Virus record (IMG/VR): IMGVR_UViG_3300030117_008055
Location: 1-64,000 of that record
From: an uncultured virus (IMG/VR IMGVR_UViG_3300030117_008055)
Taxonomy: Duplodnaviria; Heunggongvirae; Uroviricota; Caudoviricetes
Direction: 5' to 3' (one strand)
Length of the DNA stretch: 64,000 bases
In this document: positions 943 to 17,747 of the stretch, in pieces
Numbering within the stretch: the stretch's first letter is position 1
How the letters are laid out: each line of letters begins with the position of its first letter
The notes under the pieces: generated by a model
Told to the model about the DNA's origin: nothing
Seen by the model: the letters and a program-made list of their open reading frames with translations, nothing else
Database searches by the model: none
Made by a program: the position numbers and the translations under genes

Positions 943-3900
943 ATGAGTACAAAAGATCTTTTTGATAAAGGCTATTCTTTAAACTTTTTAAAGAACAAGT
1001 CTCTTACGGACTACAGAGAAGATGTAGAGTCGCCCAGATATATCGATGCTTATATCAAAAAAAGAGAAAGATTTTTTCCTGATGTAAATTATGCTACTGC
1101 TTCTAATTTTGCTGCATATGGATTAGCAGAGGAATATTACAAGCAATCTATAGAAAGAATATATAAAACATATCCTTACGATGGATCTTTAGCAGAAAAA
1201 TTAGAGTGGGAAAATGAAAGCACCTATTTAGATCTTTTTATTTTCGAAAATGAATATCCTAGGTCAAACGGATATGTCAATATAAGCAATCAATATACAA
1301 CCACTGAACAATCAGATGCTTACAGTAGTAGTTTTCCACAATATGTTTTTTTTACGGGAAATCCTCATGCAGATATTAGTGGAAACTTTAAGGAGCCACC
1401 AACGGCCGGCCCGTCAGGAATTGGTGTTTCTAAAGCTAACGTTTATGAAACAGGAAGTCAGAGAACAAACAATCTTGAAATGGATCCAACCAAGGGAGTT
1501 ACCGTTGAGTTTTGGTTGAAAAAAGATGGGTGGGCTGCAACAGACTCTAAAAAATTAGAATATATTTTTAACCTTGTAGCTTCAGGGTCAACCGGTGATA
1601 ATTTTGCAAACTTTAGAATTTATGCACTTGGTGAGAATCCAGGCAATATATATCTTAATGTAGACTCTGGCTCTAGCTCAGATTCACTAGTTTTTAACAC
1701 TGCGCTAACTGGTGGTGTTGCAGGTGGTCTAGCTGATGGCAAGTGGCATCATTATGCTATAACTTTTGAAAAAAACGATTCAGTTAATGTTGGAAAACTT
1801 TATGTCGATGGTGTACACAAGCAAACAAAAAATGGCGATGATCATGTTGATGCCTTTGATGGTAAGTTGGTTGCAACAATCGGTGCACTAGCTGGTCCTA
1901 GAGGATCAAATTTAACTATTGCAGATCGAGGGTGGGGAGGTTTAGTTTCTTCATCGATTGATGAATTTAGATATTGGAAATCAGAAAGATCATCACAACA
2001 AATTGGTCGACACTTTAGAGATCAAATTGGCGGTGGTACAAATACAGACAACGTTAAGTACGATAAGACACATAATCCTGTAGATTTAGGAGTATATTTT
2101 AAATTTAATGAGGGTATAACTGGCGATAATTCAATTGACTCTACAGTCTTAGATTACTCTGGTCGCATATCTAATGGAACTTTTGTAAACTATCAAAGTG
2201 GTTCATCTAGAAATACTGGATCAGCAATGGTTTCTGCTAGCGTGGCTGAGCGTGAATTTAAAGATCCTATTATATACTCGTCTCATCCAAGTGTTATTAG
2301 TCTAATACAGGAGAAAACAAGAGATGGTGCAGTGCACGATCATGAAAATGCTACTTCAATTTTCAAATCACTACCTGGATGGATAGCAGAGGAAGATGAA
2401 GAAAAATCTGGAAATTTAAAATATCTTATACAGATCATGTCAAGTGTTTTTGATGAGATTCAGCTTCAAGTTGGTTCTATTCCAAAATTAAAAGATATAA
2501 ACTATCCATACGATGCAAAGTTTGAAAAGCCATTACCTTTTGCAGATCGTCTTTTGTCTTCCCGCGGACTCGACGCACCAGAACTTTTTTCTGATGCATC
2601 TCTTCTAGCAAAATTTTTACAGAGGGGTGAAAAAAAGTTATTTGAAAAAAAATTATACGAGATAAAAAATACAATATATCAAAACATTTACAATAACTTA
2701 ACATACATCCATAAATCAAAAGGCACAATGAAGTCAATGAGAAACCTTTTAAGGTGTTTCGGAGTTGACGAAGAGCTTGTAAAAATTAATATTTATTCAA
2801 AAAATGGTACTTATGAGTTCAAAGATAATGTATCGCACATGGCTTTACGTAAAAAATATGCAGATTTTGATGACCTAGAGACAAGATTTGGAACAACCGG
2901 TATATATTCTGGCACTTTTGCTTCTACAGTTTATCAATATTACGATTCAACTAACGCTAATTCACTTTCTTATATTCCAGCGTTAGCCGATGTATCTCAT
3001 GGACTTGCTGCTACAATTGAAGCGGAGGTTATCTTTCCAAAAAGAACTCCCCAAAGAGATGATAATTTTGGACTTTTTCCTGGCAGAGAGGTTTCTTTGT
3101 TTGGACTGCATGCAGTCGAAGCTTCAAATACTAATTTAAATTACTTGAACGACAATATTAACTTCAATGTCATAGCTGTAAAATCTAACAACGACCCCAG
3201 AAGTGTAAAATTTGCTGTTACATCAAACTCTAACTCAAATATTCCACACATGGAAACAACTGGCACGTTTATGGGAGTTTATGATAATGAAAAATGGAAT
3301 CTTGCATTTAGAATCCGACCTGTAAAACACCCGTTAGCAGACAAAGTTAATGATTCTTTAGTTCCTGCAGCATCATCATATCAAGTTGAGCTTTACGGGG
3401 TAAATTATTTATCAGATCAGCTTCAGAATGAGTTTACTTTAACGCAGGTACTATCAGAAGCTAATGCGAGAGCATTTTTTAGCAAAGCAAAAAGATTATT
3501 TGTAGGTGCAAATAGAACAAACTTTGATGGAGATTTAGTTAGAGCTTCCGATGTTAAAATATCTTCTGTCAATATGTGGTATGATTATCTCGAAGATGAT
3601 GAAATTAAAGCACACGCAAGGGATGCGAACAACGACGGGCGCGCCCACCCTTACAGAAATGCAATATTTAACGAGGGCACACAAAATGATTTAATAGCTG
3701 GCGGTGACAGCGACCTACTGTGGACTTTTAGAGTACCAGAAATTGATACTTTAGTATTAAGCTGGAACTTTGAAAATGTTACAGGTTCAAATTCTGACGG
3801 CCAATTCTTAGTAAATGATATTTCATCGGGATCTGCAGAAGATAGAACTAATTTACGCTATGGAGCGTTAAGTGAGGTAAATACTTACCACTTTTCAGGT

Positions 3901-6900
3901 CGTGGAGACAAGTTTGTTGCAAATAGTGACCAGGCTGTGGATATAGAGTTTGTTCCGACAGGCAGAACTAGACTTCCAGAGGTTATTGCTAGCGATGATA
4001 TGGTAAAAATACTTAATCAACAAGATGATGTGATGTTCACAAGGGACACAACCTTCATACAGCACATTATATCTGTAGAGAAGAGCATGTATCAGTCTAT
4101 TTCTGAAGAAATGTTGAGAATGTTTGCTACTGTCACTGACTTTAACAACATTGTAGGTAGTCCTGTTAACAGATATAGGATGAATTACAAGGAATTGTCA
4201 AAATTAAGAAATATTTTCTTTGAAATTGTACAAAACGAGCCAGATATTGAAAAATATATTGAATATTTTAAGTGGATTGATGATGCAATATCATTATTTA
4301 TCTTTCAACTGCTTCCTGCCTCCTCAAATAAGGTAGAGTTCCTAAGAACCATGGTTGAAAGCCACATTCTTGAAAGATCAAAGCATTTTAATAAGTTTCC
4401 AACCATAGAAATGTTTAATCCAGAGCCAAACGAAGCTTTCAAGGGTATAAATCAGCTACTTTATAACTGGAAAATAGGCCATGCGCCCCTTCAGTCAAAT
4501 GGATCGGGACCAGACCAGGCACAAAACCAACACATGCACTCATTATGGTGGAAAGAGCGAGCAGAAAGAACAGGATCTGTCGTGCAAGGCGTTAATCATG
4601 CAGCTGTTCTTACATCAGGTGACGATAATATTGATGCTAGCAAACACGAAATACTAAAAGTAGCTATAACAGAGACGTCAGGTAATGATAGCTTGTCATT
4701 ATCGTTCGGGCCTTCTGGTTTGGACAAGGCAGATGGTAAGTATGGCGCCCAGGGGGGTACAAAGACCAAGTATTCCGCATCATATTACTCAGATCGCTCA
4801 ACAAGCACTCCAGTTAGGGTAACACAAAGTTTTGTTAAGACATACAAATCTGGTCCAAATCCTGATTCAAATAAGATATATGATTTTTATAAGGGTGTTG
4901 TTAAGTTTGCCAGTGATAATGACTATATTTTTCTAGATAAAGACCACGTTGTCAAACCTCTAGATTCAACTGACGTCCTCCAAGCTGAAAAAAGCTCTTC
5001 ATCCGAGGGTTTTTATCTTCCAAACAAGAAAGAGTATGTTATTAAAGCCCTTACAATGACAGGAGATGAAATTTCAAGCTCAAATGCTGCTGGCACGGGA
5101 GATAGCGACTACAAATACACAGATGCCCTTAATAAACTAACAACTCCGTTTAGTATGTTTGCAAATAAAGGCGTGGCGAACGGTGATTATACAGTATTTT
5201 ACGAAAATTATTTTGAAAATGGACATCATAATAGTCAAAATGACACAACTCGTATCGAAATAAACAACTTACACCATGACATATATCGTCCGACTTTTGA
5301 AGTTCCAATGCAGGGGCCTTTCAACAGACAGCATGTCGGAGGAAACCAACATCGACATATTAGTTTAAACTATCGTGACTATGATTCTACGGGCAGCTTG
5401 GGTGCTCTTGATACAAGAATGTCTAGACCGGAAGCTTGGGAGTTAGTTCACGATAAAGGAATGTCAAATTACATTATTTTAGATATGCCGTTTGCTCGGT
5501 ATAACATGCCTCCAGAAATGTCCGGGTCAGATCCAACAACTGGCCATGTTGATGTTTTTCGTGCCTTTGGTGATCCTGAACCTCGTGATAGGTGGAGAAA
5601 CGTAACTAAAAATGACAAGCTAGCTGGTTCTATTAAAGGGTGGCAAAGAGCAACGTTTATATCAGACCCAGATTGTGGACCAGAAAATGACTCTGGTGAT
5701 GGAACTACTTTTTTTGCATATGCAAGACTAGAAAACGAAGAAAACATTACAAATAAATATTTTGGATATCGGACACCTTTAATTGATGCTCATGATGCGC
5801 ATCGAGGCTTGACAATTAAATTCTATTACCATGTAACATCAGCTCCAAATTTAGAAACTGGACGATTTTTTGTTGATTATTCTTATGATGAAGATTTTAG
5901 TGATGGTGGAACAAACTTAACTACTACATGGGACATTGGTGCAGCTGGTCAAGAAAGCGCAGTGATTCTTCCAAAAACTTTAGAACAAACCTCTAAAAAA
6001 GATTCTTGGAAGTTGGCATCAATAGATCTTAGCGCGTTCATGGGGCAAAGAGTATATCTTAGATTCAATTACGTAGCAGCGCCACACTCATTTAATATAT
6101 GTGCTATAGATCAAGTTGAAGTTGTTGCTGTATCTGGAATATCTTCTTTGCGGTTACTTCATCCAACTCATGATGATCATCATCGTCCATACGCTCCATA
6201 CATGCGAGAAGAGTATGCAAAACGCCCAGTCAATATTAAAAATATTCAGATTGGCAAACTAGAAAGTAAAGGTAATTTAAATTCTTTACATGCTGGAGAT
6301 TTTGGCGCACTTCAAAGAACAATAGCTGGAAACTATCGCAATACATATGAATATGTTAATACTGTTAGTCGAGAGGCCAACGATCCTACATTTAAAAAAC
6401 TAATAGAGACTTTGCCAGAATCTAGTAATCCACAAGAAGGGATGCAAGAAATAGCATCGATGTATTTAGGATACAGTGATTCTTTTCCAGTGTTGTTTTC
6501 TTCTCAAAAAACTCAACATGGTACAGAAAATCGCTTAGCTAGATATTTAACTGTCCATCAGATAGAGAATGGTGTTACATCTTCTTCTGAAATTACTTCA
6601 AACGCAATTTCTGTTAACCCAGTGCCGGGAAGAGACAGGCGGGAGCCTCACAAAGGAATTGAGGCTGCATATAAGCAAAAAACAAGAATGGTTAATTTAT
6701 TTTCTGCTCCGGGTGATATTTTAGATTCTTGCACTGGATTTTTAGATGAAGCGCACAGAACTTATTCTGCTTATAATTGTCTTCCTTGGAGAAATTATAG
6801 GATCAGACAAAGAATGCAATCGATGTTGACAGCACACTGTGGCAAATTTGGAATTGGATCTCATACGCAAAATGCTACAGCAGCTGCAGGAAGTATAAAA

Positions 6901-7776
6901 ATTGTAGATAATAATGCAATTAATACTTATCAAACTGCTGTGGGAAAAGTTTTTGTTTTTATGATTACTGATGGAAATGGAAAAACTATTAATATTCTTC
7001 TTAAAACATCCGCTCAACAGCCAGATCCTTCTTTTTCTTGGACCGACGAGTATGAAAATTTAACAATTAATTTTGTGATTGGTGACAACGAACAAGATAC
7101 TGCTAGTAAATTACTTATTGCGTTTAACAGTGCAAAAGCACTTTTTTCCAATACTGAAGGCGCTTCGTCTTTCAATGTTTCTGCAGAGCCCGATGAGTCA
7201 GACAATTCAAAAATTAATTTTACACATGATATTTCTGGGTTTGTCAGCAACACTAGAATATATGTTAGACAGGTAGATGAAACAGACCAGACAAAAATGG
7301 TTGATGTACCAGCCTCAATGGTTGAAGTTTTAACATTCATAGGCGGTAAAAATGCAACCGCTAGAGTATACAGATCTCAAGCTGTGCAACCACCTCAGCC
7401 TGGTGTTATAGAAAAAGCTGATTATACAGTTGTAAGTGCTAGTTTTCACAAATATCATCGCAATAGAGCAGATAAATTTTTCTTAGGTGACGCTACACAA
7501 GATAATTCTTTTTACAATAACATGCAGCAGACTGCTAGTACTCTGCAATACGCCGACACCCCAACAGATATACTAGCAAGAGGCTCGGTATATGATAACG
7601 CTTATATTGGACATGCAATTCCACGTTCAGATGATCAAGTTCACTGGGTTAGGAGCGTCAATGGTCTAGTTCAAGAGCAGCTCAATTTAGAATATGAAGA
7701 AAACGATCCTACTTTAAAGCTTGTTATAAATGATTTATCATTAATCGAAGCCTTGGCTGACGTTATAAAGCCGTGA
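943..7776 (+). CDS. Large baseplate/virion protein (2277 aa) with a LamG/ConA-like domain, a P2 gpI-like baseplate motif and a MAM-like insertion
   Basis: LamG signature VTVEFWLK...WHHYAITF...LYVDG...IDEFRYW (~1500-1980). IHKSKGTMKSMRNLLRCFG (~2707-2763) resembles the P2 gpI/baseplate wedge K.KGT motif. IKFYYH...WKLASIDLSAFMGQRVYLRF...AIDQVEV (~5640-6130) is MAM-like. Confidence 0.65.
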   Translation: MSTKDLFDKGYSLNFLKNKSLTDYREDVESPRYIDAYIKKRERFFPDVNYATASNFAAYGLAEEYYKQSIERIYKTYPYDGSLAEKLEWENESTYLDLFIFENEYPRSNGYVNISNQYTTTEQSDAYSSSFPQYVFFTGNPHADISGNFKEPPTAGPSGIGVSKANVYETGSQRTNNLEMDPTKGVTVEFWLKKDGWAATDSKKLEYIFNLVASGSTGDNFANFRIYALGENPGNIYLNVDSGSSSDSLVFNTALTGGVAGGLADGKWHHYAITFEKNDSVNVGKLYVDGVHKQTKNGDDHVDAFDGKLVATIGALAGPRGSNLTIADRGWGGLVSSSIDEFRYWKSERSSQQIGRHFRDQIGGGTNTDNVKYDKTHNPVDLGVYFKFNEGITGDNSIDSTVLDYSGRISNGTFVNYQSGSSRNTGSAMVSASVAEREFKDPIIYSSHPSVISLIQEKTRDGAVHDHENATSIFKSLPGWIAEEDEEKSGNLKYLIQIMSSVFDEIQLQVGSIPKLKDINYPYDAKFEKPLPFADRLLSSRGLDAPELFSDASLLAKFLQRGEKKLFEKKLYEIKNTIYQNIYNNLTYIHKSKGTMKSMRNLLRCFGVDEELVKINIYSKNGTYEFKDNVSHMALRKKYADFDDLETRFGTTGIYSGTFASTVYQYYDSTNANSLSYIPALADVSHGLAATIEAEVIFPKRTPQRDDNFGLFPGREVSLFGLHAVEASNTNLNYLNDNINFNVIAVKSNNDPRSVKFAVTSNSNSNIPHMETTGTFMGVYDNEKWNLAFRIRPVKHPLADKVNDSLVPAASSYQVELYGVNYLSDQLQNEFTLTQVLSEANARAFFSKAKRLFVGANRTNFDGDLVRASDVKISSVNMWYDYLEDDEIKAHARDANNDGRAHPYRNAIFNEGTQNDLIAGGDSDLLWTFRVPEIDTLVLSWNFENVTGSNSDGQFLVNDISSGSAEDRTNLRYGALSEVNTYHFSGRGDKFVANSDQAVDIEFVPTGRTRLPEVIASDDMVKILNQQDDVMFTRDTTFIQHIISVEKSMYQSISEEMLRMFATVTDFNNIVGSPVNRYRMNYKELSKLRNIFFEIVQNEPDIEKYIEYFKWIDDAISLFIFQLLPASSNKVEFLRTMVESHILERSKHFNKFPTIEMFNPEPNEAFKGINQLLYNWKIGHAPLQSNGSGPDQAQNQHMHSLWWKERAERTGSVVQGVNHAAVLTSGDDNIDASKHEILKVAITETSGNDSLSLSFGPSGLDKADGKYGAQGGTKTKYSASYYSDRSTSTPVRVTQSFVKTYKSGPNPDSNKIYDFYKGVVKFASDNDYIFLDKDHVVKPLDSTDVLQAEKSSSSEGFYLPNKKEYVIKALTMTGDEISSSNAAGTGDSDYKYTDALNKLTTPFSMFANKGVANGDYTVFYENYFENGHHNSQNDTTRIEINNLHHDIYRPTFEVPMQGPFNRQHVGGNQHRHISLNYRDYDSTGSLGALDTRMSRPEAWELVHDKGMSNYIILDMPFARYNMPPEMSGSDPTTGHVDVFRAFGDPEPRDRWRNVTKNDKLAGSIKGWQRATFISDPDCGPENDSGDGTTFFAYARLENEENITNKYFGYRTPLIDAHDAHRGLTIKFYYHVTSAPNLETGRFFVDYSYDEDFSDGGTNLTTTWDIGAAGQESAVILPKTLEQTSKKDSWKLASIDLSAFMGQRVYLRFNYVAAPHSFNICAIDQVEVVAVSGISSLRLLHPTHDDHHRPYAPYMREEYAKRPVNIKNIQIGKLESKGNLNSLHAGDFGALQRTIAGNYRNTYEYVNTVSREANDPTFKKLIETLPESSNPQEGMQEIASMYLGYSDSFPVLFSSQKTQHGTENRLARYLTVHQIENGVTSSSEITSNAISVNPVPGRDRREPHKGIEAAYKQKTRMVNLFSAPGDILDSCTGFLDEAHRTYSAYNCLPWRNYRIRQRMQSMLTAHCGKFGIGSHTQNATAAAGSIKIVDNNAINTYQTAVGKVFVFMITDGNGKTINILLKTSAQQPDPSFSWTDEYENLTINFVIGDNEQDTASKLLIAFNSAKALFSNTEGASSFNVSAEPDESDNSKINFTHDISGFVSNTRIYVRQVDETDQTKMVDVPASMVEVLTFIGGKNATARVYRSQAVQPPQPGVIEKADYTVVSASFHKYHRNRADKFFLGDATQDNSFYNNMQQTASTLQYADTPTDILARGSVYDNAYIGHAIPRSDDQVHWVRSVNGLVQEQLNLEYEENDPTLKLVINDLSLIEALADVIKP

Positions 7777-7850
7777 GGATCATAATACTTTAACTTAAGG
7801 TATATTTGTTATATAATCTAATTATTTAAGAATACCCACAAAGGTGAAAA

Positions 7851-10800
7851 ATGTCAAGAAGCAGATATATTACACTCGAACAAAGCAGAGCAAATAGAGC
7901 AACCACTTTTACATCAGTTAAAACTTATACTCTTGAATCTAGAAACACAGCCTCAGTCACGGCTTCATCAGAGTTTGTTCCTCTAAACACTCTTATTGTT
8001 GATAATTTTCCTGAAACTTCTAAAAAAGGGTCATGGTATCTATATGTTTTTGATAATCCCACCGGTAGTTTTTTTCAACTAGAGACGCCTGAAAAAACAC
8101 ATAAGTTTACAGCTGTTAACGACACAACTCCACTAGTGCCAGCTAGTGCTAGCATAAGTGTAGTTGCAAATCAAGCAGTTGCCAAAATTACTTTTGATGG
8201 TACTACAATCCAAAATGGTGAAAATTTTAGAATTATTGACGGTGAGGGTAAGACAACTTTGTTTACGTTTGATACCGGGTCAACATCGTCTACTGGAACA
8301 ACTGTTGGTTTATCGGGAAGATCAACCACAAGCACTATTGCCACTGCTGTTGCTTCATGTATTAATTCTGAATCGATCAAAATTACAGCAACTGCCTCTG
8401 GAAGCAGTGTAGAGCTAAAGCAAGATATCTTTGGAAGCCATGGAAACACACTAACACAGACTTCTGGGAGCACAACTTTAAACTCCGGATATAGAGTTTC
8501 TAATTTTTCCGGCGGTCGAGGACTAAATTATTCCTCACATAATCAAGGAATTACTTTTTCTGATGCTTCAAATAATAGTTACAGCGCATCAATAGACGCG
8601 GGGACACGATCAACTTTGTCTATTGATCTGGTTTCTATTGATAATATTGCTTCTAGTGCAGCTGCCTCAGGCTCAATAACAGTAACAGACTATTCAGCTT
8701 TGACAGCTGCGACTACAGCATCAGCCACAGTTTCGGTTTCAAGCGCGAACATAACTGCTGGAGACACTATTAGGCTAATTGATTCCTATGGCTACGCGCA
8801 TTCATTTAGGGCAGTTGCCTCTCGCGGCAATGAAAGCACAGATTATATTTTTGATTCAGGAAGCTCTAGCACTACAGCAACAAATTTAGCTAGGATAATA
8901 AATCTAAATAATTCTTTTTCTGCCTCCGCATCCTCAAATAACGTTACAATTACTCAGTTTGTTGGAGGTGCTGCAGGAAATACAACCATCACAATTACCC
9001 AGCCATCAGGCAGCGCTGGTATTGAAGTTACCTCCAACTTTTCATCAGGTGCAGATGGTACAAAAATTGTTTTAACGTCTGCGGATGGTCAGCAATATAA
9101 TTTATTAGCTGATAGTAAAGTAACGTCTGGTGATGTATCAACTACAACTGCTTCTCCTGCCTTTAGAGGAAATACACTATTTTTTAAGATTGGTTCAACA
9201 AACGCAGCCACAGCAACTAATATAAAAACTGCGTTAAATCAAATAGGAGCATTTAATTCTTCTATTTCCAGTAATGTAATATCTGTCACTCAGCAATTTG
9301 CAGGAACCTCTGGAAATATTTCTATAACAGAGAATTCATCTGGATTGACTGCAGATGGCTTTGCTGGTGGTACTGCTGGGGACTCATTTGTCTTTACAAC
9401 AAGACACTCTGATAGCGTAACTCTTCGAGCAGGAGAAAATTTTCTTGTTAAGTCTGGAGATAGAGAATTAACAAGAGATAATTTAATTTCCTCTATTAAT
9501 TTAAACCCAATTTTATTTGCTAATTTTACTGCTTTTCCACACGATTGCGATCCAGGCATTGCAGTTTTAACTTCTCGCAGGGCTGGTACAAGCGAAAATT
9601 CTCATTCTGTTTCTTTTTCTTCTACTAGTACTGCAGCTGGCGATATTAAAATTCAAGATACTGCAATAACAAATAGTAGAAGCATATCAGCTCAATCTTT
9701 TGTCTCAGGGGCTGCATCGGCTACAACATCAAAAACAATTATTGGAGTTAGCAGCGTTACTACTCCAACGGAGTTTGCTGCAGAAATAAATACTTCTTTG
9801 GCAGCAGCAATAACTGATGGACTAAAAGCTACCACGTCTGCTAGTGGAGCCACAGTTTCTGTGGTGTCGTCAGTTGCAGGATCTGCAGGAAATAACACCA
9901 TAAGTGGTTCATATGTTTTTGGATATAATGCATTTACTTCTGGTTTTTCTGGTGGTGCAGACAATGTGCATGTAGGTTCTAGCAAAACAGACTATGCTAC
10001 TAATCTTGTTTCTAGAATAAACACGTCTTTATCTTCTTATGTCACTGCAACTCTTGGAGATCTTACAACAATAACTGCGCCGCGTCATCCTCCAACTGGA
10101 AAGATTACATTTGTATCTACCACTCTTAGCGATTACACATCGCAGACTATTACTATAAGTGGACTGGAAAAAACTAAAACTTATAAATTTTCTGATGAGT
10201 GCGGAGACACTGGGGAATTAAGCGGATCTAGTGTGATGGTTTACTTAGGAAACCAAACAACCATAAATGTAAATAATATAGCTAATGAGTTTGTTGGTGC
10301 ATTAAATCATTCGAATGGCCACGGGTTTAACATTAGAGTTAAAAACCCCTCCAGCGGAGTCATAATTTTATCTCTAAAACATGGTACTGAGAATTCTATT
10401 ACAGCTATGTCAAAAACCGCTGCAGATTCTGTCATGACCAAGGAAGATATAACGCAACAGACTGCAGTTCCAATTACAATTGCAATGAAATTTGGAGGAG
10501 ACTTTAGGGACGCATATCCAGCATCAATTAGCATAGATGGTAGTCTTTTCTTAGATAAGACACCTTCAACTAGTTGTGATTCCTGTGAGGATGATGTAGA
10601 TAATCATTTCGAGACCGGTCCAATAGGTGGAGAAGGCCCATCGATTATTAATTTTGACAATATTAAAGGTGGAGGAAACACAGATACGAGTGATTACCTC
10701 AACCCAAATTATCAAGATTTTTATGGCTCTGGATCGCAAGCAAACTCTGGTGGACTCTTAAATGATATCCTTGTTAATAGAAATGGAATTTATGAATATC

Positions 10801-13800
10801 CCACTTTTAAGCAATATGGCGAGGTTATTGAAAAGCTTGGTGGAGGAAACTATTACACTACACCTCCGCTTGGTATGGGATTTCAGCCACCAGAATATGA
10901 TACTACTTTTGAGATACCTCAGCCTACAGGTGATGGCCCTCCATACAAACTAGGTGCAATTATTTTAGATGGCGATGACGATAATATTCCAGATAATGCA
11001 ACGTTGGGCGAACTAGGTGAAATTGGTGAAGGCGACATTTTTGATCCAAAACCTAGAATTCCTGGGCTTCCTCACCTTCGTGCTAAGCCAGTACAATATT
11101 TTTATGAGCCAGCCTTAGAGGATAGGCATAAGCCATTGATTTATCAATTTTCTTCTGATGAGGGATCTCCAAATTCAGTCGCAATTGCAAGACAGACTTT
11201 GTTTAATGGTATTCACTTTTTTTCAAACAAGTATCAAAATATAAAATATAGACTTTTGGATGGAGATGCTAGAGACTTCAAAGTTGGTTCGCTTAGAAAA
11301 TCTCATTTATATGATTTATTTAGGGCTGCTCGCGCAATGGGAGGTCGAAGATTTAGGTTTAGAGAGCGTTTGTTCCCAGGAGAGTTAAATTCAAGAAGAT
11401 CTCAATTAAATAAGCGTCCTGATTATCATGAACTAGATAGTATTGTTGCGTTTGACGGTCAAAAAATAGATCCAAAACAAGATATAGATCACAGAAAAAG
11501 ATTGACCGATCTTAGAATATTTTGGAGAAATAAACAAGTAGATAGGGTAAGAAACATACGAGCTAGCCATGCAGATGAATCAGTTTTTCTTACGCCTACA
11601 AGCTCTTTAGGTGGTGTATATCAACCCTCTCCAATCACCAAGGATGGAATGTTTCACGAGATAAGACAAATATCTCATGGTTTTTATGTTCAGCCTGGAG
11701 ATTTAAAAGATCAGTTTGCAGGCTCTGATGGACGTAAGCATCATATTGCTGCTGGTATATCTACAAGATATCAAATGGCTAAAACTGCAGACAGCACACC
11801 AAATCTAGGCGAAAATGCTATAATTGTCAATGATGAAAAACATGAGGGCAATCTTAATGCACAATCTGGCGCGCCACAACAAGAACCTGTAAAACTAAAT
11901 AGCTCTATGATTGAGGCTATAATTTTACCTACTTCTGCCATGCAAGGTATAGATTCCCCATTTTTGCCTGAAGATTCTTTAATTGTTGCATTTTCAGCAA
12001 CATCTGCATCCTTCATAGACTCAAATAGCCAAACTGTAACTAATGATGTTGATGTAGGCCATGAAATCCACTACAATCAACCTTTTGATTTTAGTTTAAT
12101 AAGTATGTGGCCTTTAGATTTTCCAGAATATCTCCGTTTGCCCTTCAAGCCAAAAAGTAATCTTGCTAGCCTGCAAGACCCTGATGACTCAACTTATCAG
12201 ATTTTGGATAGTGGGCCTTTTGTTTATGGAATTCAAAGAGTTGGTCTTGCCCCTAACAGAATTGCTCCTGATAGAGTTGAGGGTGCAAATGGCACGCCTG
12301 TTCCTAATTTTTATGAATTTCTCGAAAACAATCCTCATGCTTCTAACTTTTTTAATCAAGAATATGCGAACAGGCTTGGAGACCCTAAGCTAGCAACACA
12401 TGGTCAAAATCCAAAAAATCAAGTTACTGGAGCCGCAGGCGAGCTTTTGTTCAGCACCAAGCCGACAATTACTTTGTATAATAAGCACGCGTACAGAAGG
12501 CCTTTGCCTTTTCCAAGCAACGGTTTTTTACCGGGAGGCAAGCAGTTTTATTCAAACTTAACTACTAATTCTCCAAGTGAAACACTGCTTTTCGACGCCG
12601 CATATGTTTTTAATGGCGCAGAATTTAGTGAGCCAATATTTGTTGATGATGCTTCAGATTTGATAAAAGGATATGGTATTGTTAGTGAGTTGTCTAATGA
12701 GCTTGAAACTACAGAAACTTCCCTTGCTAGCGCTATTTCTAGTGCAGAGCCAAATAGTGAAACTCTTCTTAACAGCTACGAGCCAAAACCAGCTATTTCT
12801 TTTCAAGGAGGAAAAAAAATAGGTGATTCAGACAAGAAAGAAGACTCCAACGGTCTAATAGCGCAAGATTTTGGCACAGCATATAAATATGATTATAGCT
12901 CAATACATCATACTGCATTTTTAAGAGATGGAGCACCCAAACCAGGAACTACATATGACCTTGAGTTCGAATCCGGGGATATCAGTTTCAAATTTACTAA
13001 TATAGAAAATCGCGATAGTTATTTTACTTTAGAGAGGGCAGCAGAGGGTGCAGCTGGGTATGCTAGTGCAACAGCTAGTATGCAATATTTACGTCATGCT
13101 TGGCCTTATTACCAGCCAATATGGAGATTGGATAAATTAACTGGTCGCTCTCCTTTTCATGACTCATATCAAGATTTTACTAATGATGTTGATATTGTTG
13201 GCCGTGGATATTCACAAATTGCAGAGTTTACAATTTCAGATCATTTTGAGCACTACAATGATTTCTTAATTGAGTCTATTAATAATGACAGGCCTGTGTA
13301 TTCGATTACTGAATTTAATAGAATTAAAAGAAACTTAAATGTTCCAATTAATTATGCTGCTAACTTTGCAAAAATTATTGGATCATCAAATGTTGGTGAT
13401 GTGCAAGTTTCTGCTCTGGCTGGCCAGTCTGGTCTTTTAAGTGAGTCTCCAAAAGTTATACACACTGCTAGTGCCATGTCCTCTACTTTTAATGCAACCT
13501 CTACAATGCATGATTTAGAATATGCAGACTACACTGTTGTATTTAATTCTTTATCTGCCAGCCAATATGAAGAGGCGAATGGACACTGGAGAATGGATTC
13601 TCACAGTACAGCCTTTATGCCAAAATACATGCAGGCTGATGCTAGCAAAAACTTTGCAAAACTGTCGCGACAAAACGATAGAGGGTTTTTAGACGATAAA
13701 GATACTATACCAAATAAAATTACTTTGACTGTTAAATCAATTAAAAAGCTCTTGCCTCAAAAAGATATGTATCCTTTGTTTAGAACAATGAAACTTGGCT

Positions 13801-16800
13801 CAATGTTAACGGATGCATTTTCTGACTCAATAAGCTACTCTACTAGGGAATATGATGGAATAAATTCTGGCGTAACTGACTCTCATAAGGCTGCTGCTGC
13901 GACACAAAGCTTTTTAGAGCCTCTTTTTGCTCCTGGAATCATGTTTAATTCAATTAAATCTGGGTTAGGAGTTAGTTTTCCTATTTTTGTTGATGAAGGA
14001 GCCGGCCGCGGCGCTCCATACTATTATGGCAATCCTCACATATATGGTCCATGGGGACCATCTCCATTTACCTCCTCCGGCCAGCAACATGCAGGATTTG
14101 ATAATTTAGCATATAGAATAGATGATCCTGTTACAATGTTTAGTTATGGATTAGCCAATAGTGCTGGAGTTAATAGAACGGCGCCAACATATTTGATGCG
14201 TAGGCCAAGCTTTCAGTTGCCTTTTGAAGCGATATATAAGCCAAATTATTTAGAAATAATGAAAAAACGCAAGACTTATATGGTTGATGATCTTTTTGAT
14301 CAAACGAGGTCAACTTATGTTACAGGGGCCTATAATCAGATAGAGTATGAGACCGGCACACCAGGCGGATCACATGAATGGACATTTACAACTGCGTCAA
14401 TTTCATATGTTATTACAGGAACTTCTAATCATGCTCACATGACAGGTTCAAGATTTACATTGTCTGCTTGGCATGCGCAATCAGGAGAGAAAACAAAAGA
14501 TTTTGATTCTCAGGTGCAGTATGATTATGGAACCCCAGAGGACACATCTTATTGGGAGTTTAAAAATCACCCCCAAAGTGCCTTAGACCCTTCAATAGCT
14601 TTATTTCCAGAGATAAATAGTTTAACTGCTTCAGTCGATGATGAAAGTATTGATGATTTTCCATTATTTTTGAATTATAGATTTGAAGGCGTTGCTAATG
14701 ACACTGATGCTGTTAATATAACAGGATCTCAATTTTTAGTAGGAACTACTCCATACGAGTATGCTACAAATTTAGCAGACGCAATCAATCGTCGATGCAA
14801 AGTTACTCATTCAGTGCAAACAGGCTCAACACCATCTTACGATATTGATGGAAATGAAGTGGTGGCTTCTAGTAAAACTATGAAGTTACGTATTCATCAA
14901 TTTTTTACAGCTAGTGTGCTAGTGGATACCACAGGAAAATTTGGTCAACCGGTCGGACAAGTCGCAAACGTGCTAACAATACACACTGCTGGCCCATTAA
15001 TGAATCATGGAATAAAAGAAGGTATAGTATTTTTTAACAATGATGATGAATTACTTATGTTTGATGACACAAATATTCATCCTCTTGTATTTGCTAGAGA
15101 AATGAGACTTCCAGTTGGAGACGCCAACGCAGATTGTATATTCGGTACCCCCATATGCCATACATCATCACATGGTAAAAGATTTACCAGTTCTACAACT
15201 GCACTAGGATTAGTGAATCATTCCTATGGCTTTTTCGATAGACCAGGAAGTTCTCACTCTAGAAACGTTGCGCAACATGAATTTAAACCTCATGTCCTTC
15301 TGTACCCAGACATGCCAGATACTGGCAGTTTTCAAAGTAGATTATATGAAGCATCAATTAATAACTTTTTAGCAGAAACAATTAATTTCTTTATAGATTC
15401 TGAAAGTGAAGGCAGGTACTATGATTTAAAAATGCCAGTTATTGTATCTGATCCAATAGAAACTGTACCGGTGACGTCTGGTACGGTATATTATATGTCT
15501 GTAAATCTATACATGGGCAAAAGTCACATTATGTGTGAAGGCCCTAGGTTTGCAAATATGCCTCACGCAGCTCATAATGCATCTTCCTCAATGAGAGGTG
15601 CTTTTTTTGGGCCACCAATGGAGGTTGTGCACCGTGATTCTAAGATAAATGGACCCGCTAGTGGAGGATACACAAGTGATGCTGAGGCAATGAGTTCTAA
15701 TTTAACAGACCCAGCCTATCATCATGTAACACCCCCATATTTTTATGGCCCATCATCTATTCTATTGCGATACCAAGCTACTAGCAGTGGCGATGTTACA
15801 ATTGATGATATATGGACAAATACTAAAAAATCATCATTATATTTTGAAGAATATATTACAGACATTCCAGATGGATCAACTACTACAATCGGAGATGAAG
15901 TCCCGGTATCCGACTTTTTCTTCCCAACTTCGTCGTTGAGTCCAAAAGTGCCGACAAAAAAATCTGTATCGCAAGGCTCGGCTGCAAGAATGAAATTAGA
16001 AGAGTGTGTTGATGTTTGGTCTCCAAAAAATCTTGTTGAAGTACAGGCGCTTGATCCAGCAACAAACATCCCCTCTGCAACTCCGACAAAAGTTTGGGCT
16101 ATGACTCCAAAATGGGTTTGTCCCGTTTTAGATTTTGGTCTGCCAGCAACACTTTTCATGTCTGCTAGTTCATATGATTCTTTTGATAACAAAATATTTG
16201 AATCTTCATTTCAACTTAATGATCCAGCAATTAAGTCAACTTTATCTTACTATAACATGCTTACAGGTAGATCTATGTGGACTGGATACGGAATTGACCC
16301 ATATGATGGGTCAGATTTAAAAAGAATTGAATTGTATATGAACAAGCAACAACTTCTTAAAAAACAGTTTGAAGATTATTATGAAATTTTAAAACAAGAT
16401 GAATTAGAAAATGGAAATATAGAAAAAGAAACTATCGCTTTTGTGGTAGAGCCAGATCAAGATGTTTCTTCTGTTAATAAAAAAGGAATTTATTTTCAAA
16501 TATCAGAAACGTTCCCGGAAGAGCTTGCAACACAAGCTGCTTCTTCTGTCACATTCCAAACCCCATACGAGGGTGCAGAAAATGCTTCCGGATATTATAC
16601 CTCCAGAGAAGAAGTGTTTTCATCAACTAGCGTAACATCATCTCTTGTACCCTTGCTGGGCTTTAACGATACAAACAGAAGGCCAATTGGAAAAATTTCA
16701 AAGAGCAAAGTCGTCTCTGAGGCTATTGTCGCTATCCCTTATCTACCCAAGCCTTTTGGAATATACGGAAAAATTAGAGGAACTGGCCCAGATGGATCAG

Positions 16801-17747
16801 TAATTGCATCTAAAGATTTGCTTAGTCTTGTGGAAAAAGGACCTGATCAGTCTTTAGTAAGAACTTTAATGGGTACTACTGAGGTTATTCCAGGATATCA
16901 CTTTTTGTCAATTGACAATTTGGTTTTTGACAATTTCTTAAATACTATTTTAATAGACTTTTTAACTCCAAACAGCTCGCCCAGAAGTGAAGAGTTAAAG
17001 CAAAGGTACGAAAATTATTCAAATGCATTAGAAATATGTGATGCTAGTGATCTAGGAATAATGATAAACACACTCCTAGGTCGTGTTGGCCCATCTAAGC
17101 TTGGCTATATGCTTCCGCCAGAGATGGACTTTATAAACAATTCAGCGATTGCACCTTTTCAAATGGCTGTAGTTCCTCTTGCTCACGAGTTAGACAAAAG
17201 AGATCTTATGAATATGTGGCAAAATATAATGCCAGATATATCCACTAAATTGATAAAATCTGTTGATAACATTTCGTTTAATCCAAATGCAAATTTCTTT
17301 GGAACGCCTGAAGCTGAATTTGACTTATTGGCAATATCTAAGACTGGTGGAAATCTAGGATCGCCTCCGCTTGCCGAAGTTTGCCCGGGCCAGTTCTTGA
17401 ATACTAAATCTCTTTCAAAGAATTTTCAAAAAACTTTTGAAGACGATATACTTCCCTATAATATTCCATTCATCCCTCCTAATTCATCTGTTTTTTTTGA
17501 AAAGCTTAAGTGGCTTGTATTTAAAGTAAAGCAGCGCGCCGCAAAAGATTATGAAACCTACAGAGAGCGTCAAATAGATGCTGCAATTGCTTCGAAAGGA
17601 TACCAAAGAAAACAACAACAAAACTTGCAATATTCTGCTTTAGATTGTCTAAATACAAAAGAGATCTATGGTGCAAATTGGCCCTATGATTTCTTCTCAT
17701 TAACTGAGAGAGCAAAAATAGAAATTGAATATGAGGTGCAGTCTTAA
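7851..17747 (+). CDS. Giant virion structural protein (3298 aa) with nested Ser/Thr/Gly-rich modules in its N-terminal region
   Basis: Uninterrupted 9.9 kb ORF within the structural block; AGGTG SD-like sequence upstream; repeated A.A.I.V / ATN(L/I)...IN / GN..I...F.GG modules. Confidence 0.6.
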   Translation: MSRSRYITLEQSRANRATTFTSVKTYTLESRNTASVTASSEFVPLNTLIVDNFPETSKKGSWYLYVFDNPTGSFFQLETPEKTHKFTAVNDTTPLVPASASISVVANQAVAKITFDGTTIQNGENFRIIDGEGKTTLFTFDTGSTSSTGTTVGLSGRSTTSTIATAVASCINSESIKITATASGSSVELKQDIFGSHGNTLTQTSGSTTLNSGYRVSNFSGGRGLNYSSHNQGITFSDASNNSYSASIDAGTRSTLSIDLVSIDNIASSAAASGSITVTDYSALTAATTASATVSVSSANITAGDTIRLIDSYGYAHSFRAVASRGNESTDYIFDSGSSSTTATNLARIINLNNSFSASASSNNVTITQFVGGAAGNTTITITQPSGSAGIEVTSNFSSGADGTKIVLTSADGQQYNLLADSKVTSGDVSTTTASPAFRGNTLFFKIGSTNAATATNIKTALNQIGAFNSSISSNVISVTQQFAGTSGNISITENSSGLTADGFAGGTAGDSFVFTTRHSDSVTLRAGENFLVKSGDRELTRDNLISSINLNPILFANFTAFPHDCDPGIAVLTSRRAGTSENSHSVSFSSTSTAAGDIKIQDTAITNSRSISAQSFVSGAASATTSKTIIGVSSVTTPTEFAAEINTSLAAAITDGLKATTSASGATVSVVSSVAGSAGNNTISGSYVFGYNAFTSGFSGGADNVHVGSSKTDYATNLVSRINTSLSSYVTATLGDLTTITAPRHPPTGKITFVSTTLSDYTSQTITISGLEKTKTYKFSDECGDTGELSGSSVMVYLGNQTTINVNNIANEFVGALNHSNGHGFNIRVKNPSSGVIILSLKHGTENSITAMSKTAADSVMTKEDITQQTAVPITIAMKFGGDFRDAYPASISIDGSLFLDKTPSTSCDSCEDDVDNHFETGPIGGEGPSIINFDNIKGGGNTDTSDYLNPNYQDFYGSGSQANSGGLLNDILVNRNGIYEYPTFKQYGEVIEKLGGGNYYTTPPLGMGFQPPEYDTTFEIPQPTGDGPPYKLGAIILDGDDDNIPDNATLGELGEIGEGDIFDPKPRIPGLPHLRAKPVQYFYEPALEDRHKPLIYQFSSDEGSPNSVAIARQTLFNGIHFFSNKYQNIKYRLLDGDARDFKVGSLRKSHLYDLFRAARAMGGRRFRFRERLFPGELNSRRSQLNKRPDYHELDSIVAFDGQKIDPKQDIDHRKRLTDLRIFWRNKQVDRVRNIRASHADESVFLTPTSSLGGVYQPSPITKDGMFHEIRQISHGFYVQPGDLKDQFAGSDGRKHHIAAGISTRYQMAKTADSTPNLGENAIIVNDEKHEGNLNAQSGAPQQEPVKLNSSMIEAIILPTSAMQGIDSPFLPEDSLIVAFSATSASFIDSNSQTVTNDVDVGHEIHYNQPFDFSLISMWPLDFPEYLRLPFKPKSNLASLQDPDDSTYQILDSGPFVYGIQRVGLAPNRIAPDRVEGANGTPVPNFYEFLENNPHASNFFNQEYANRLGDPKLATHGQNPKNQVTGAAGELLFSTKPTITLYNKHAYRRPLPFPSNGFLPGGKQFYSNLTTNSPSETLLFDAAYVFNGAEFSEPIFVDDASDLIKGYGIVSELSNELETTETSLASAISSAEPNSETLLNSYEPKPAISFQGGKKIGDSDKKEDSNGLIAQDFGTAYKYDYSSIHHTAFLRDGAPKPGTTYDLEFESGDISFKFTNIENRDSYFTLERAAEGAAGYASATASMQYLRHAWPYYQPIWRLDKLTGRSPFHDSYQDFTNDVDIVGRGYSQIAEFTISDHFEHYNDFLIESINNDRPVYSITEFNRIKRNLNVPINYAANFAKIIGSSNVGDVQVSALAGQSGLLSESPKVIHTASAMSSTFNATSTMHDLEYADYTVVFNSLSASQYEEANGHWRMDSHSTAFMPKYMQADASKNFAKLSRQNDRGFLDDKDTIPNKITLTVKSIKKLLPQKDMYPLFRTMKLGSMLTDAFSDSISYSTREYDGINSGVTDSHKAAAATQSFLEPLFAPGIMFNSIKSGLGVSFPIFVDEGAGRGAPYYYGNPHIYGPWGPSPFTSSGQQHAGFDNLAYRIDDPVTMFSYGLANSAGVNRTAPTYLMRRPSFQLPFEAIYKPNYLEIMKKRKTYMVDDLFDQTRSTYVTGAYNQIEYETGTPGGSHEWTFTTASISYVITGTSNHAHMTGSRFTLSAWHAQSGEKTKDFDSQVQYDYGTPEDTSYWEFKNHPQSALDPSIALFPEINSLTASVDDESIDDFPLFLNYRFEGVANDTDAVNITGSQFLVGTTPYEYATNLADAINRRCKVTHSVQTGSTPSYDIDGNEVVASSKTMKLRIHQFFTASVLVDTTGKFGQPVGQVANVLTIHTAGPLMNHGIKEGIVFFNNDDELLMFDDTNIHPLVFAREMRLPVGDANADCIFGTPICHTSSHGKRFTSSTTALGLVNHSYGFFDRPGSSHSRNVAQHEFKPHVLLYPDMPDTGSFQSRLYEASINNFLAETINFFIDSESEGRYYDLKMPVIVSDPIETVPVTSGTVYYMSVNLYMGKSHIMCEGPRFANMPHAAHNASSSMRGAFFGPPMEVVHRDSKINGPASGGYTSDAEAMSSNLTDPAYHHVTPPYFYGPSSILLRYQATSSGDVTIDDIWTNTKKSSLYFEEYITDIPDGSTTTIGDEVPVSDFFFPTSSLSPKVPTKKSVSQGSAARMKLEECVDVWSPKNLVEVQALDPATNIPSATPTKVWAMTPKWVCPVLDFGLPATLFMSASSYDSFDNKIFESSFQLNDPAIKSTLSYYNMLTGRSMWTGYGIDPYDGSDLKRIELYMNKQQLLKKQFEDYYEILKQDELENGNIEKETIAFVVEPDQDVSSVNKKGIYFQISETFPEELATQAASSVTFQTPYEGAENASGYYTSREEVFSSTSVTSSLVPLLGFNDTNRRPIGKISKSKVVSEAIVAIPYLPKPFGIYGKIRGTGPDGSVIASKDLLSLVEKGPDQSLVRTLMGTTEVIPGYHFLSIDNLVFDNFLNTILIDFLTPNSSPRSEELKQRYENYSNALEICDASDLGIMINTLLGRVGPSKLGYMLPPEMDFINNSAIAPFQMAVVPLAHELDKRDLMNMWQNIMPDISTKLIKSVDNISFNPNANFFGTPEAEFDLLAISKTGGNLGSPPLAEVCPGQFLNTKSLSKNFQKTFEDDILPYNIPFIPPNSSVFFEKLKWLVFKVKQRAAKDYETYRERQIDAAIASKGYQRKQQQNLQYSALDCLNTKEIYGANWPYDFFSLTERAKIEIEYEVQS

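What the first reader, a model, noticed from the sequence alone, without database searches (positions are those of the whole stretch)
8000..10500. Self-nested (Russian-doll) domain insertions, up to five levels deep, in a 3298 aa virion protein
Seen: one module recurs with four ordered parts: (a) A.A.I.V strand, (b) G..(I/F).L.D..G...F, (c) ATN(L/I)...IN helix, (d) A.....V..(Q/S)...G..GN..I....F.GG. Only some copies are contiguous (8172-8516, 8703-9050, ~10074-10460). The others are split, and their halves bracket inner copies like parentheses. ASSAAASGSITVTDY (8649) resumes as ADGTKIVLTSADG...FAGG (9051-9371) around 8703-9050. TRSTLSIDL (8604) resumes as TAGDSFVFT...FVSG (9372-9710). PASASISVV (8139) resumes at 8517-8603 and again at 9711-9956 (...FSGG). 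An outermost copy (TGSFFQLETPEK, ~8060) resumes as DYATNLVSRIN at ~9990. Inference: the module has adjacent N- and C-termini and has repeatedly inserted into loops of earlier copies, building a branched, tree-like appendage rather than a linear repeat fibre. Nested domains are established for tail sheath proteins, but I do not know of recursive self-insertion of one module like this.
Basis: partly seen in the sequence, partly recalled or inferred. Interest (0 to 1): 0.8.

Follow-up and report, generated by a model that had tools for sequence, protein, structure and literature searches.

The report
Self-nested domain tree in phage tail
A giant, likely tail-baseplate protein of an uncultured phage carries seven copies of one small domain encoded one inside another, four deep and likely five, predicted to fold into a branched stalk that likely helps the virus attach; the same domain nests this way in other proteins too.

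Summary
Confirmed. Residues 55-905 of the 3298-aa protein hold seven copies of a ~120-aa module, ordered S4[S3[X1, S2[S1[X2]]], X3]. The module has the fold of the tail-sheath outer domain and FliD D2.

With inner copies left out, the orphan N-parts are predicted to dock into the C-parts that bracket order requires (score 0.74, best control 0.00). The same host loop holds 0, 1, 4 or 7 modules, or a LamG domain, in relatives. In the 150 best family hits, a whole copy is flanked N-half/C-half 36 times and the reverse once, with host-insert identity up to 77%.

Weak points: S2 and the outermost S4 barely gain by rejoining, the full-length model failed (pLDDT 41), and function is inferred.

The principle is published: six-level Si3 of cyanobacterial RNA polymerase, and one self-insertion of a FliD-D2-related flagellin domain. 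I found no paper on deep self-nesting in virions. This scan reported it before on apparently near-identical DNA (e1-5858101) and other genomes. Verdict: new variant of a known kind.

The parts
7851..17747 (+). Host ORF, 3298 aa. C-terminal part of a giant, likely baseplate protein that is one gene (fused to the homologue of ORF 943-7776) in P0002, P0003, P0004 and P0011
   Evidence: a gp6-like wedge gene lies two genes upstream of the first part in relative L036; no Pfam/PHROG hit
7974..7988 (+). Left host anchor motif (aa 42-46) before the inserted nest
8013..8132 (+). S4 (level 1, outermost), N-part: first strand and hairpin, aa 55-94
   Evidence: aligned to L003; weak HMM support
8133..8165 (+). 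S3 (level 2), first strand, aa 95-105
   Evidence: adds 7 bits on rejoining, 52 vs 45
8166..8516 (+). X1, contiguous module (level 3 side branch) in S3's first loop, aa 106-222
   Evidence: 61 bits; model pLDDT 90.5; sheath outer-domain fold
8517..8603 (+). S3 hairpin part, aa 223-251
   Evidence: residues within 233-250 are in the predicted interface
8604..8654 (+). S2 (level 3), first strand and linker, aa 252-268
   Evidence: aa 253-259 predicted to pair antiparallel with aa 570-575; weak by HMM
8655..8705 (+). S1 (level 4), first strand and linker, aa 269-285
   Evidence: aa 272-278 predicted to pair antiparallel with aa 476-481 and to touch aa 504; 44 vs 36 bits
8706..9050 (+). X2, contiguous innermost module (level 5), aa 286-400
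   Evidence: 48 bits; VIA Z 9.0 (rmsd 2.4, 83 aligned) to PhiTE tail chain 9cb9_A
9051..9371 (+). S1 C-part, aa 401-507
9372..9713 (+). S2 C-part, aa 508-621 (diverged copy)
9714..9956 (+). S3 C-part, aa 622-702
   Evidence: 38 bits alone, 52 rejoined; in the predicted interface
9957..10088 (+). S4 middle part (strand, helix, strand), aa 703-746
   Evidence: 7.7 bits, profile positions 62-89; L003 has the same resumption
10089..10466 (+). X3, contiguous diverged module (level 2 side branch) in S4's third loop, aa 747-872; not recognisable at this place in L003
   Evidence: 24 bits
10467..10565 (+). Probable S4 C-part, aa 873-905
   Evidence: hhalign places it at profile 95-107 when rejoined, low score
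10779..10817 (+). Right host anchor motif (aa 977-989) after the nest
943..7776 (+). Upstream 2277-aa ORF, N-terminal part of the same giant protein family, with LamG and one probable single diverged module at about 6871-7347
   Evidence: LamG E 9e-13; module weak: 7.7 bits, hhalign E 0.007

Best explanation
Seven copies of one ~120-residue module with the tail-sheath outer-domain/FliD-D2 fold are encoded inside one another, four deep and likely five, in one loop of a giant, likely baseplate protein, and are predicted to fold as a branched stalk that likely serves as an accessory attachment structure on the virion. SHOWN in sequence: bracket order of the parts, whole-module gain or loss at the same junctions in relatives, and family-wide breakpoints at three profile positions (about 20, 45-55, 80-90). 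PREDICTED: each orphan N-part completes the sheet of its own C-part, and the module's two ends lie together. INFERRED: at least two of the three receptive loops lie at the end opposite the termini, so each new copy extends the arm outward (stalk S4-S3-S2-S1-X2, side branches X1 and X3). New copies likely arise by copying a module into a loop of itself or a neighbour through illegitimate recombination or template switching. The loop is likely a display site, since other relatives carry a LamG lectin-like domain there.
For: Rejoined S3 52 bits vs 38/35 and S1 44 vs 36/40. L003's rejoined S3 40 vs 23/21. Two-chain model: score 0.74, best of 3 controls 0.00; the mark was reached by 116 of 157 solved and 2 of 215 mismatched pairs (own alignment, so roughly); runs agree in at least 89% of contacts; partner pLDDT at least 78; strand registers as the nest requires. 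Host loop length in 37 sequences with both anchors: 36-112 aa in 32, 194 (one module, L041), 289 and 300 (LamG), 855 (L003) and 935 (window). Among the 150 best family hits: N-half/whole/C-half order 36 times, reverse once; 28 clean triplets in 24 of 150 proteins; host-insert identity median 41%, 9 of 28 at 50% or more (max 77%), against median 29% and 5 of 599 between proteins. X1 model pLDDT 90.5, best Foldseek match A-1(L) sheath-tube chain E 4e-4. The module profile hits Milano sheath 90-183 (E 0.02), inside its extension domain 91-203 (PMC10811340).
Against: The full-length model was uninformative (pLDDT 41, pTM 0.23). In the sliding-window control the proposed N-part ranked 16 of 982 for S1, but 219 of 982 for S2, 71 of 970 for the S3 hairpin and 524 of 959 for S4, so sequence alone does not fix these pairings. 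The two-chain job left out X1, X2, S4 and S3's first strand, and halves of a known fold can pass by likeness to solved structures. L003's single inner module fits the window's S1 best (250) and S2 worst (162), so the order of insertion is unresolved. Non-nested copies within one protein also reach 50% identity in 33 of 187 pairs, so similarity shows local copying, not nesting as such. No direct hit places the host in the baseplate, and no binding function was tested.
Confidence: 0.82

Rival explanations
1. Same nested architecture but no adhesive role: the arm is a docking platform for fibres or other virion proteins, or neutral accretion tolerated at an exposed loop.
For: The same fold matches T7-type tail complex chains (6r21 Z 7.3, rmsd 3.8, 96 aligned; 8i4m Z 8.6, rmsd 2.7, 87 aligned) and T4 gp11, titled as the baseplate/short-fibre interface (Z 5.0). 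32 of 37 sequences have a short loop with no module here. The tips are the same module, not a specialised binding domain. T4's additional sheath domains are described as supposed nonessential (PMC9230969).
Against: The seven-copy order is kept in relatives at 55-58% identity as far as they extend. The same loop takes a LamG lectin-like domain in L057 (above the Pfam cut-off) and weakly in L051. GbpA, which contains a structural match (Z 6.2), uses its domains 2-3 to bind bacterial surfaces (PMC3257281).
Confidence: 0.4
2. Sequential or strand-swapped folding: C-parts fold in a row, borrowing the last strand of the previous copy or strands from another chain, and the short N-parts are linkers.
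For: The sequential reading of S1 scores only 4 bits below the rejoined one (40 vs 44), and S2 and S4 gain little or nothing. The full-length model gave no nested contacts at usable confidence.
Against: With the preceding copy's last strand available in the same chain for S2 and S3, the model still placed chain-2 segments in the C-parts in bracket order. Family-wide order asymmetry is 36 to 1, with matching N-end and C-start positions. L003 and L041 show intact modules at the same loop.
Confidence: 0.08
3. The pattern grew by two separate tandem duplications (N-part, then C-part) rather than by one-step insertion of a whole module; the final fold is nested all the same.
For: The linear order a-a-a-bcd-bcd-bcd at aa 252-621 can be written either way. 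Some family proteins give unbalanced stacks (e.g. P0015, P0025, P0045), though missed halves explain these too.
Against: Many stacks are balanced (e.g. P0027 depth 5, and at least ten proteins at depth 3). Whole modules also appear singly at unrelated loops and in other genes, which shows whole-module mobility.
Confidence: 0.2

Closest known systems
Si3 insertion of cyanobacterial RNA polymerase beta'2 (nested SBHM/HABAS domains; PMC13114784, PMC10895346; passages read)
   Same: Recursive insertion of one domain type, described as six levels with bifurcating nodes, forming an elongated arm in a loop of a host protein; some copies continuous, others discontinuous.
   Different: Different fold and setting (an enzyme, not a virion). 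Here the copy number at one loop varies from 0 to 7 among relatives, and the nesting recurs in proteins of different kinds, including a tail sheath and a tail protein.
Geovibrio thiophilus flagellin D4/D5 (PMC11532411; passages read), and FliD D2/D3, H. pylori FliD D4/D5 (PMC8306008; passages read)
   Same: The paper states that D5 is a duplication of D4 inserted in one of its loops and that D4 is related to FliD D2. The module here matches FliD chains at Z 5.2-7.0.
   Different: One level of self-insertion is stated there; four to five levels with branches here, in a phage protein.
Outer (extension) domain of contractile tail sheaths: Milano gp20 SED, A-1(L), PhiTE, Mu; Russian-doll sheath layout (PMC10811340, PMC6088184, PMC9230969; passages read)
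   Same: Same fold and weak sequence similarity; sits as an insertion in a host domain and faces outward.
   Different: Sheath dolls nest domains described as less conserved and differing between systems; here one module nests in itself, and the host is not the sheath (the sheath is gene 58301-61915).
crAss001 auxiliary capsid protein (PF25650; PDB 7qof)
   Same: Feature look-alike at 0.89-0.90 and VIA Z 6.4 for 7qof_a, 333 aa.
   Different: No Pfam hit for any of 42 modules; a lead only.

Membership tests
Recursive domain insertion (A1-B1-C-B2-A2 architecture, as in Si3) | Inserted domain itself hosts a further insertion; halves in bracket order | tested here: met
   firm for S3>S2>S1>X2, weak for S4
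Recursive domain insertion (A1-B1-C-B2-A2 architecture, as in Si3) | Discontinuous halves fold into one domain | tested here: met
   Predicted only: for S1, S2 and part of S3; S4 not tested; full-length model uninformative
Recursive domain insertion (A1-B1-C-B2-A2 architecture, as in Si3) | Host and insert are the same domain family | tested here: met
   One HMM scores X1, X2, X3, S1, S3 at 24-61 bits; S2 16; S4 9
SBHM/HABAS family (Si3 module) | Sandwich-barrel hybrid all-beta motif | tested here: inconclusive
   The X1 model has a central 14-residue helix and its top matches are sheath and FliD chains; SBHM was not compared directly
Tail-sheath outer domain / FliD-D2 fold | Same topology as the solved sheath extension domain | tested here: met
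   Foldseek 8kee E 4e-4, TMq 0.59; VIA Z 9.0 and 8.6
Tail-sheath outer domain / FliD-D2 fold | Sequence homology to solved members | tested here: inconclusive
   Profile E 0.005 (9hz7) and 0.02 (8fop) over the sheath's inserted domain; no Pfam sheath-domain or flagellar hit in 42 modules at E 0.1
Tail-sheath outer domain / FliD-D2 fold | Termini adjacent; occurs as a loop insertion | tested here: met
   Last strand (aa 504) touches first strand (aa 272-274); single copies at many loops of host proteins
T4 gp7 / P2 gpI-type baseplate wedge protein (host) | Gene downstream of a gp6-like wedge gene | tested here: met
   In relative L036: phrog_219 E 2.5e-17, then a 516-aa gene, then the two giant parts; the window's contig starts just upstream, so not seen here
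T4 gp7 / P2 gpI-type baseplate wedge protein (host) | Sequence or fold homology to gp7/gpI | tested here: inconclusive
   No PHROG, Pfam or PDB-sequence hit; a motif resemblance is recalled, not from a call
Phage accessory adhesion domains | Binding to host surface or glycan | not testable with these tools
   Inferred from LamG in the same loop and fold neighbours

The most novel reading that the evidence does not exclude
An unnamed, very large family of sheath/FliD-fold modules (2657 clusters at E <= 0.001) follows a recursive building rule in virion proteins. It copies itself into three fixed loops of its own fold and so grows trees of variable depth and branching (one 3548-aa protein holds over 20 stretches). 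This would be a general, still-active alternative to tandem repetition for lengthening virion appendages, and a natural scaffold for branched protein design.
Probability: 0.6. Interest if true: 0.75.

Novelty: new variant of a known kind. Interest (0 to 1): 0.6.

Why it matters
Most repeat proteins grow end to end. This module grows by recursion, which standard domain annotation misses (no Pfam or PHROG hit for the whole protein). A 0/1/4/7 series at one loop, three recurring insertion loops and young host-insert pairs (up to 77% identical) make the origin of nested domains testable at DNA level. The architecture also poses a folding question: outer copies cannot complete until about 250-650 downstream residues are made. 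A domain that tolerates its own insertion at three loops is a ready scaffold for branched protein design. The principle itself is already published for Si3 and, at one level, for a flagellin domain related to this fold, which caps the surprise.

Tried and rejected
Full-length AlphaFold2 of aa 51-910 with a 5-row alignment gave pLDDT 41 and pTM 0.23, uninformative. A deeper alignment with single modules (A4) was not used, because MAFFT split the modules between X1 and aa ~690-700 and would have biased the fold.

Pfam on the 3298-aa protein, the nest and 42 modules gave nothing meaningful, and PHROGs gave nothing on the 3298-aa protein. A PDB sequence search with the host alignment gave only chance hits. 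tblastn of X1 against GenBank phages found no match. Scans for further close relatives with the nest alignment returned only 98% copies; a 'longer' protein search added one protein with single modules.

The module tree was a quick, unfinished search with most forks open. It groups L003's S3 with the window's S3 only weakly and was not used to order events. A module-like insert seen by eye in this phage's sheath (aa ~151-330) failed two tests.

Assembly artefact was rejected. A VIA search with the good X1 model could not be obtained, so VIA Z values come from the X1/X2 parts of the low-confidence large model.

Literature searches for self-nested virion modules listed nothing relevant beyond sheath Russian dolls. 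The library covers open-access papers only, I saw listings of the top hits, and no supplements were read; the supplementary figure on D4 and FliD D2 in PMC11532411 may bear on how close that precedent is.

Full report
SETTING. The window is the first 64 kb of a 118.8-kb single-contig assembly of a T4-like myovirus: terminase, T4-type portal, gp23-type capsid, sheath, tube and baseplate hub are all present. The closest cultured capsids are only 41-47% identical. The finding lies in ORF 7851-17747 (3298 aa), which has no Pfam or PHROG hit. Four distant relatives (P0002-P0004, P0011) encode this protein fused to the homologue of the upstream LamG-bearing ORF 943-7776. In relative L036 the gene order is gp6-like wedge (phrog_219, E 2.5e-17), a 516-aa gene, then the two giant parts. 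A baseplate location is therefore inferred from synteny; no direct homology to gp7 was found.

OBSERVATION. My parse in residues is: S4 55-94, 703-746, 873-905; S3 95-105, 223-251, 622-702; X1 106-222; S2 252-268, 508-621; S1 269-285, 401-507; X2 286-400; X3 747-872. That is S4[S3[X1, S2[S1[X2]]], X3]: seven copies, five levels. DNA repeats in the region are at most 30 nt, and P0006, P0007, P0008 (55-73% identical) and a 99% locus keep the same order as far as they extend, so misassembly is excluded.

EXCISION TEST BY SEQUENCE. I gathered modules from 79 of 81 loci (the two near-identical to the window were left out) and built an HMM from 42 copies that exclude the window and L003. The gathering had been seeded partly with X1 and X2, so independence is not complete. 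Contiguous X1, X2, X3 score 61, 48, 24 bits. Rejoined S3 scores 52 against 38 (C-part) and 35 (sequential); S1 44 against 36 and 40; S2 16 against 14 and 12; S4 7.5-9.3 against 7.7. hhalign with orthologue rows agrees: S3 88 vs 67/65, S1 73 vs 66/66, S2 23 vs 20/21, S4 23 vs 18. Against my reading: when every same-length window of aa 1-1000 was tried as N-part, the proposed one ranked 16 of 982 for S1 (the better ones were all first strands of module copies), but 219 of 982 for S2, 71 of 970 for the S3 hairpin and 524 of 959 for S4. Sequence alone thus supports S3 and S1, barely S2, and not S4.

STRUCTURE. AlphaFold2 of aa 51-910 with five rows failed (pLDDT 41, pTM 0.23). A two-chain prediction of aa 223-285 against aa 401-702, which leaves X2 and X1 out, scored 0.74 with a best control of 0.00. 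The tool's mark was reached by 116 of 157 solved and 2 of 215 mismatched pairs (rough here, own alignment); runs agreed in at least 89% of contacts and partner pLDDT was at least 78. The tightest contacts pair aa 272-278 antiparallel with 476-481 and with 504 (S1), and aa 253-259 with 570-575 (S2). Residues within 233-250 and within 615-675 are also listed in the interface, which fits S3. This is the bracket order, and it rescues S2. Caveats: halves of a known fold can pass by likeness, and S4 was not in the job. From these registers the termini lie together at one end, while the loop after the first strand and the hairpin before strand d lie at the other (inference), so children would stack outward. 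X1 alone folds at pLDDT 90.5 with 42 rows. Foldseek's best matches are sheath or tail chains of A-1(L) (E 4e-4), Milano, PhiTE and Mu, then tail-complex and FliD chains. VIA on the X2 part of the large model gives PhiTE Z 9.0, A-1(L) 8.6, P-SCSP1u 8.6, T7 7.3, Mu 7.2, FliD 7.0, FliC 6.6, crAss001 capsid chain 6.4, GbpA 6.2 (X1 part) and T4 gp11 5.0 (Z under 8 can be a common arrangement). The module profile also hits Milano sheath 90-183 at E 0.02, inside its extension domain 91-203 (PMC10811340). BFVD matches include baseplate J-like, major tail, tail tubular and capsid proteins.

PRESENCE AND ABSENCE. Of 204 long proteins examined, 53 had the right-hand anchor and 37 both anchors (16 dropped; L003's left anchor set by hand; some loci are near-duplicates). 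The loop is 36-112 aa in 32 of 37, 194 aa in L041 (one intact module), 289 and 300 aa in L051 and L057 (LamG, E 0.003 and 6e-7), 855 aa in L003 and 935 aa here. L003 has S4[S3[X1, one intact module]]. The intact module sits at the very junction where the window has three nested copies, and X3 is not recognisable. L003's own S3 rejoins from three pieces to 40 bits against 23 and 21. Its single inner module fits the window's S1 best (global score 250), then X2 (222) and S2 (162); the best of 97 contiguous 255-aa deletions scored 199 and a control dropping aa 401-621 scored 214. So whole-module differences are shown, but the order of events is not.

THE FAMILY. The module profile finds 2657 clusters at E <= 0.001 among 1.84 billion representatives. 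I analysed only the best 150, which are biased to multi-copy proteins and include P0006 and P0007. A whole copy is flanked N-half then C-half 36 times and the reverse once; 28 clean triplets occur in 24 of 150 proteins. C-halves start mostly at profile positions 15-25, 45-60 and 80-90, and N-halves end mostly at 45-55 and 75-90 (short first-strand halves are below detection). These are the three loops used in the window. Rejoined hosts and their inserts are 41% identical at the median, 9 of 28 at 50% or more (max 77%), against 29% and 5 of 599 between proteins; non-nested copies in one protein give 33% and 33 of 187. A crude stack count gives depth 3 or more in 23 of 150, several unbalanced and unreliable (e.g. 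P0126). Of 17 hosts scanned, one is a tail sheath, one a tail protein and 15 are unannotated.

MECHANISM. Shown: bracket order, whole-module variation, three recurring breakpoints, local copying. Predicted: complementation of S1, S2 and part of S3; adjacent termini. Inferred: an insertion domain with adjacent ends is copied into a distal loop of itself or a neighbour (two illegitimate junctions, for example by template switching; two successive tandem duplications give the same order and are not excluded). Each copy would extend a stalk S4-S3-S2-S1-X2 with side branches X1 and X3. An accessory attachment role is my best guess (about even odds against docking or neutral accretion). It rests on LamG at the same loop, on the adhesion hypothesis for extra sheath domains (PMC9230969) and on GbpA domains 2-3 binding bacterial surfaces (PMC3257281).

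WHAT IS KNOWN. Sheaths are described as Russian dolls of domains inserted into one another (PMC6088184). Cyanobacterial Si3 has eight SBHM copies, several discontinuous (PMC10895346), described as a six-level recursive insertion with bifurcating nodes (PMC13114784). In Geovibrio flagellin, D5 is a duplicate of D4 inserted in one of its loops, and D4 is related to FliD D2 (PMC11532411). FliD D3 lies inside D2, and H. pylori adds similar D4 and D5 (PMC8306008). For all eight papers I saw search listings and keyword passages only. Searches showed no paper on deep self-nesting in virion proteins. Earlier scan notes report the same reading for a 3302-aa protein sharing 147 of 180 words with this one and similar nests elsewhere. 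They gave me the Si3 lead, which I checked in print; they are not independent support.

VERDICT. It is a new variant of a known kind: a known principle and a known fold, but unusual depth, branching and a recurring family-wide rule in virion proteins. Interest 0.6.

Noticed in passing
P0012 (3548 aa), aa ~98-1670: Over 20 module stretches with repeated N-half, N-half, N-half, whole, C-half, C-half, C-half order; a larger and probably deeper tree than the window's. Host unannotated.
   Followed up: partly
P0020 aa 369-731; P0095, P0024, P0073: Young nests: host and insert 68-77% identical, suited to junction analysis at DNA level.
   Followed up: partly
P0097 (876 aa) aa 102-445 and P0027 (1804 aa) aa 97-823: Self-nested modules inside an annotated tail sheath (depth about 3) and a phrog_457 tail protein (depth about 5).
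   Followed up: partly
window 7776-7851: The giant protein is split into two genes here and in several relatives (e.g. L003, L010, L036), at about the same place just before the variable loop, while it is one gene in others.
   Followed up: partly
window 58751-59290 (sheath aa ~151-330): Insertion in this phage's 1205-aa sheath that looks module-like by eye but failed HMM and hhalign tests.
   Followed up: yes
L057:279-1046 and L051:8048-8860: The loop that holds the nest here holds a LamG domain instead.
   Followed up: yes
L003:7358 ORF aa ~645-860: After its nest L003 has a long acidic, unrecognised segment before the host resumes.
   Followed up: no
window 31367-34522: SbcD-like and SbcC-like nuclease subunits are fused in one 1051-aa ORF.
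   Followed up: no
window 53639-55486: The 615-aa major capsid protein matches gp23 in two pieces, suggesting an inserted domain; no module hit.
   Followed up: no
P0002 C-terminus (3713 aa): Precomputed Pfam PF07591 and PF14890 (Hint/intein-type, names recalled) near the end of a giant relative.
   Followed up: no
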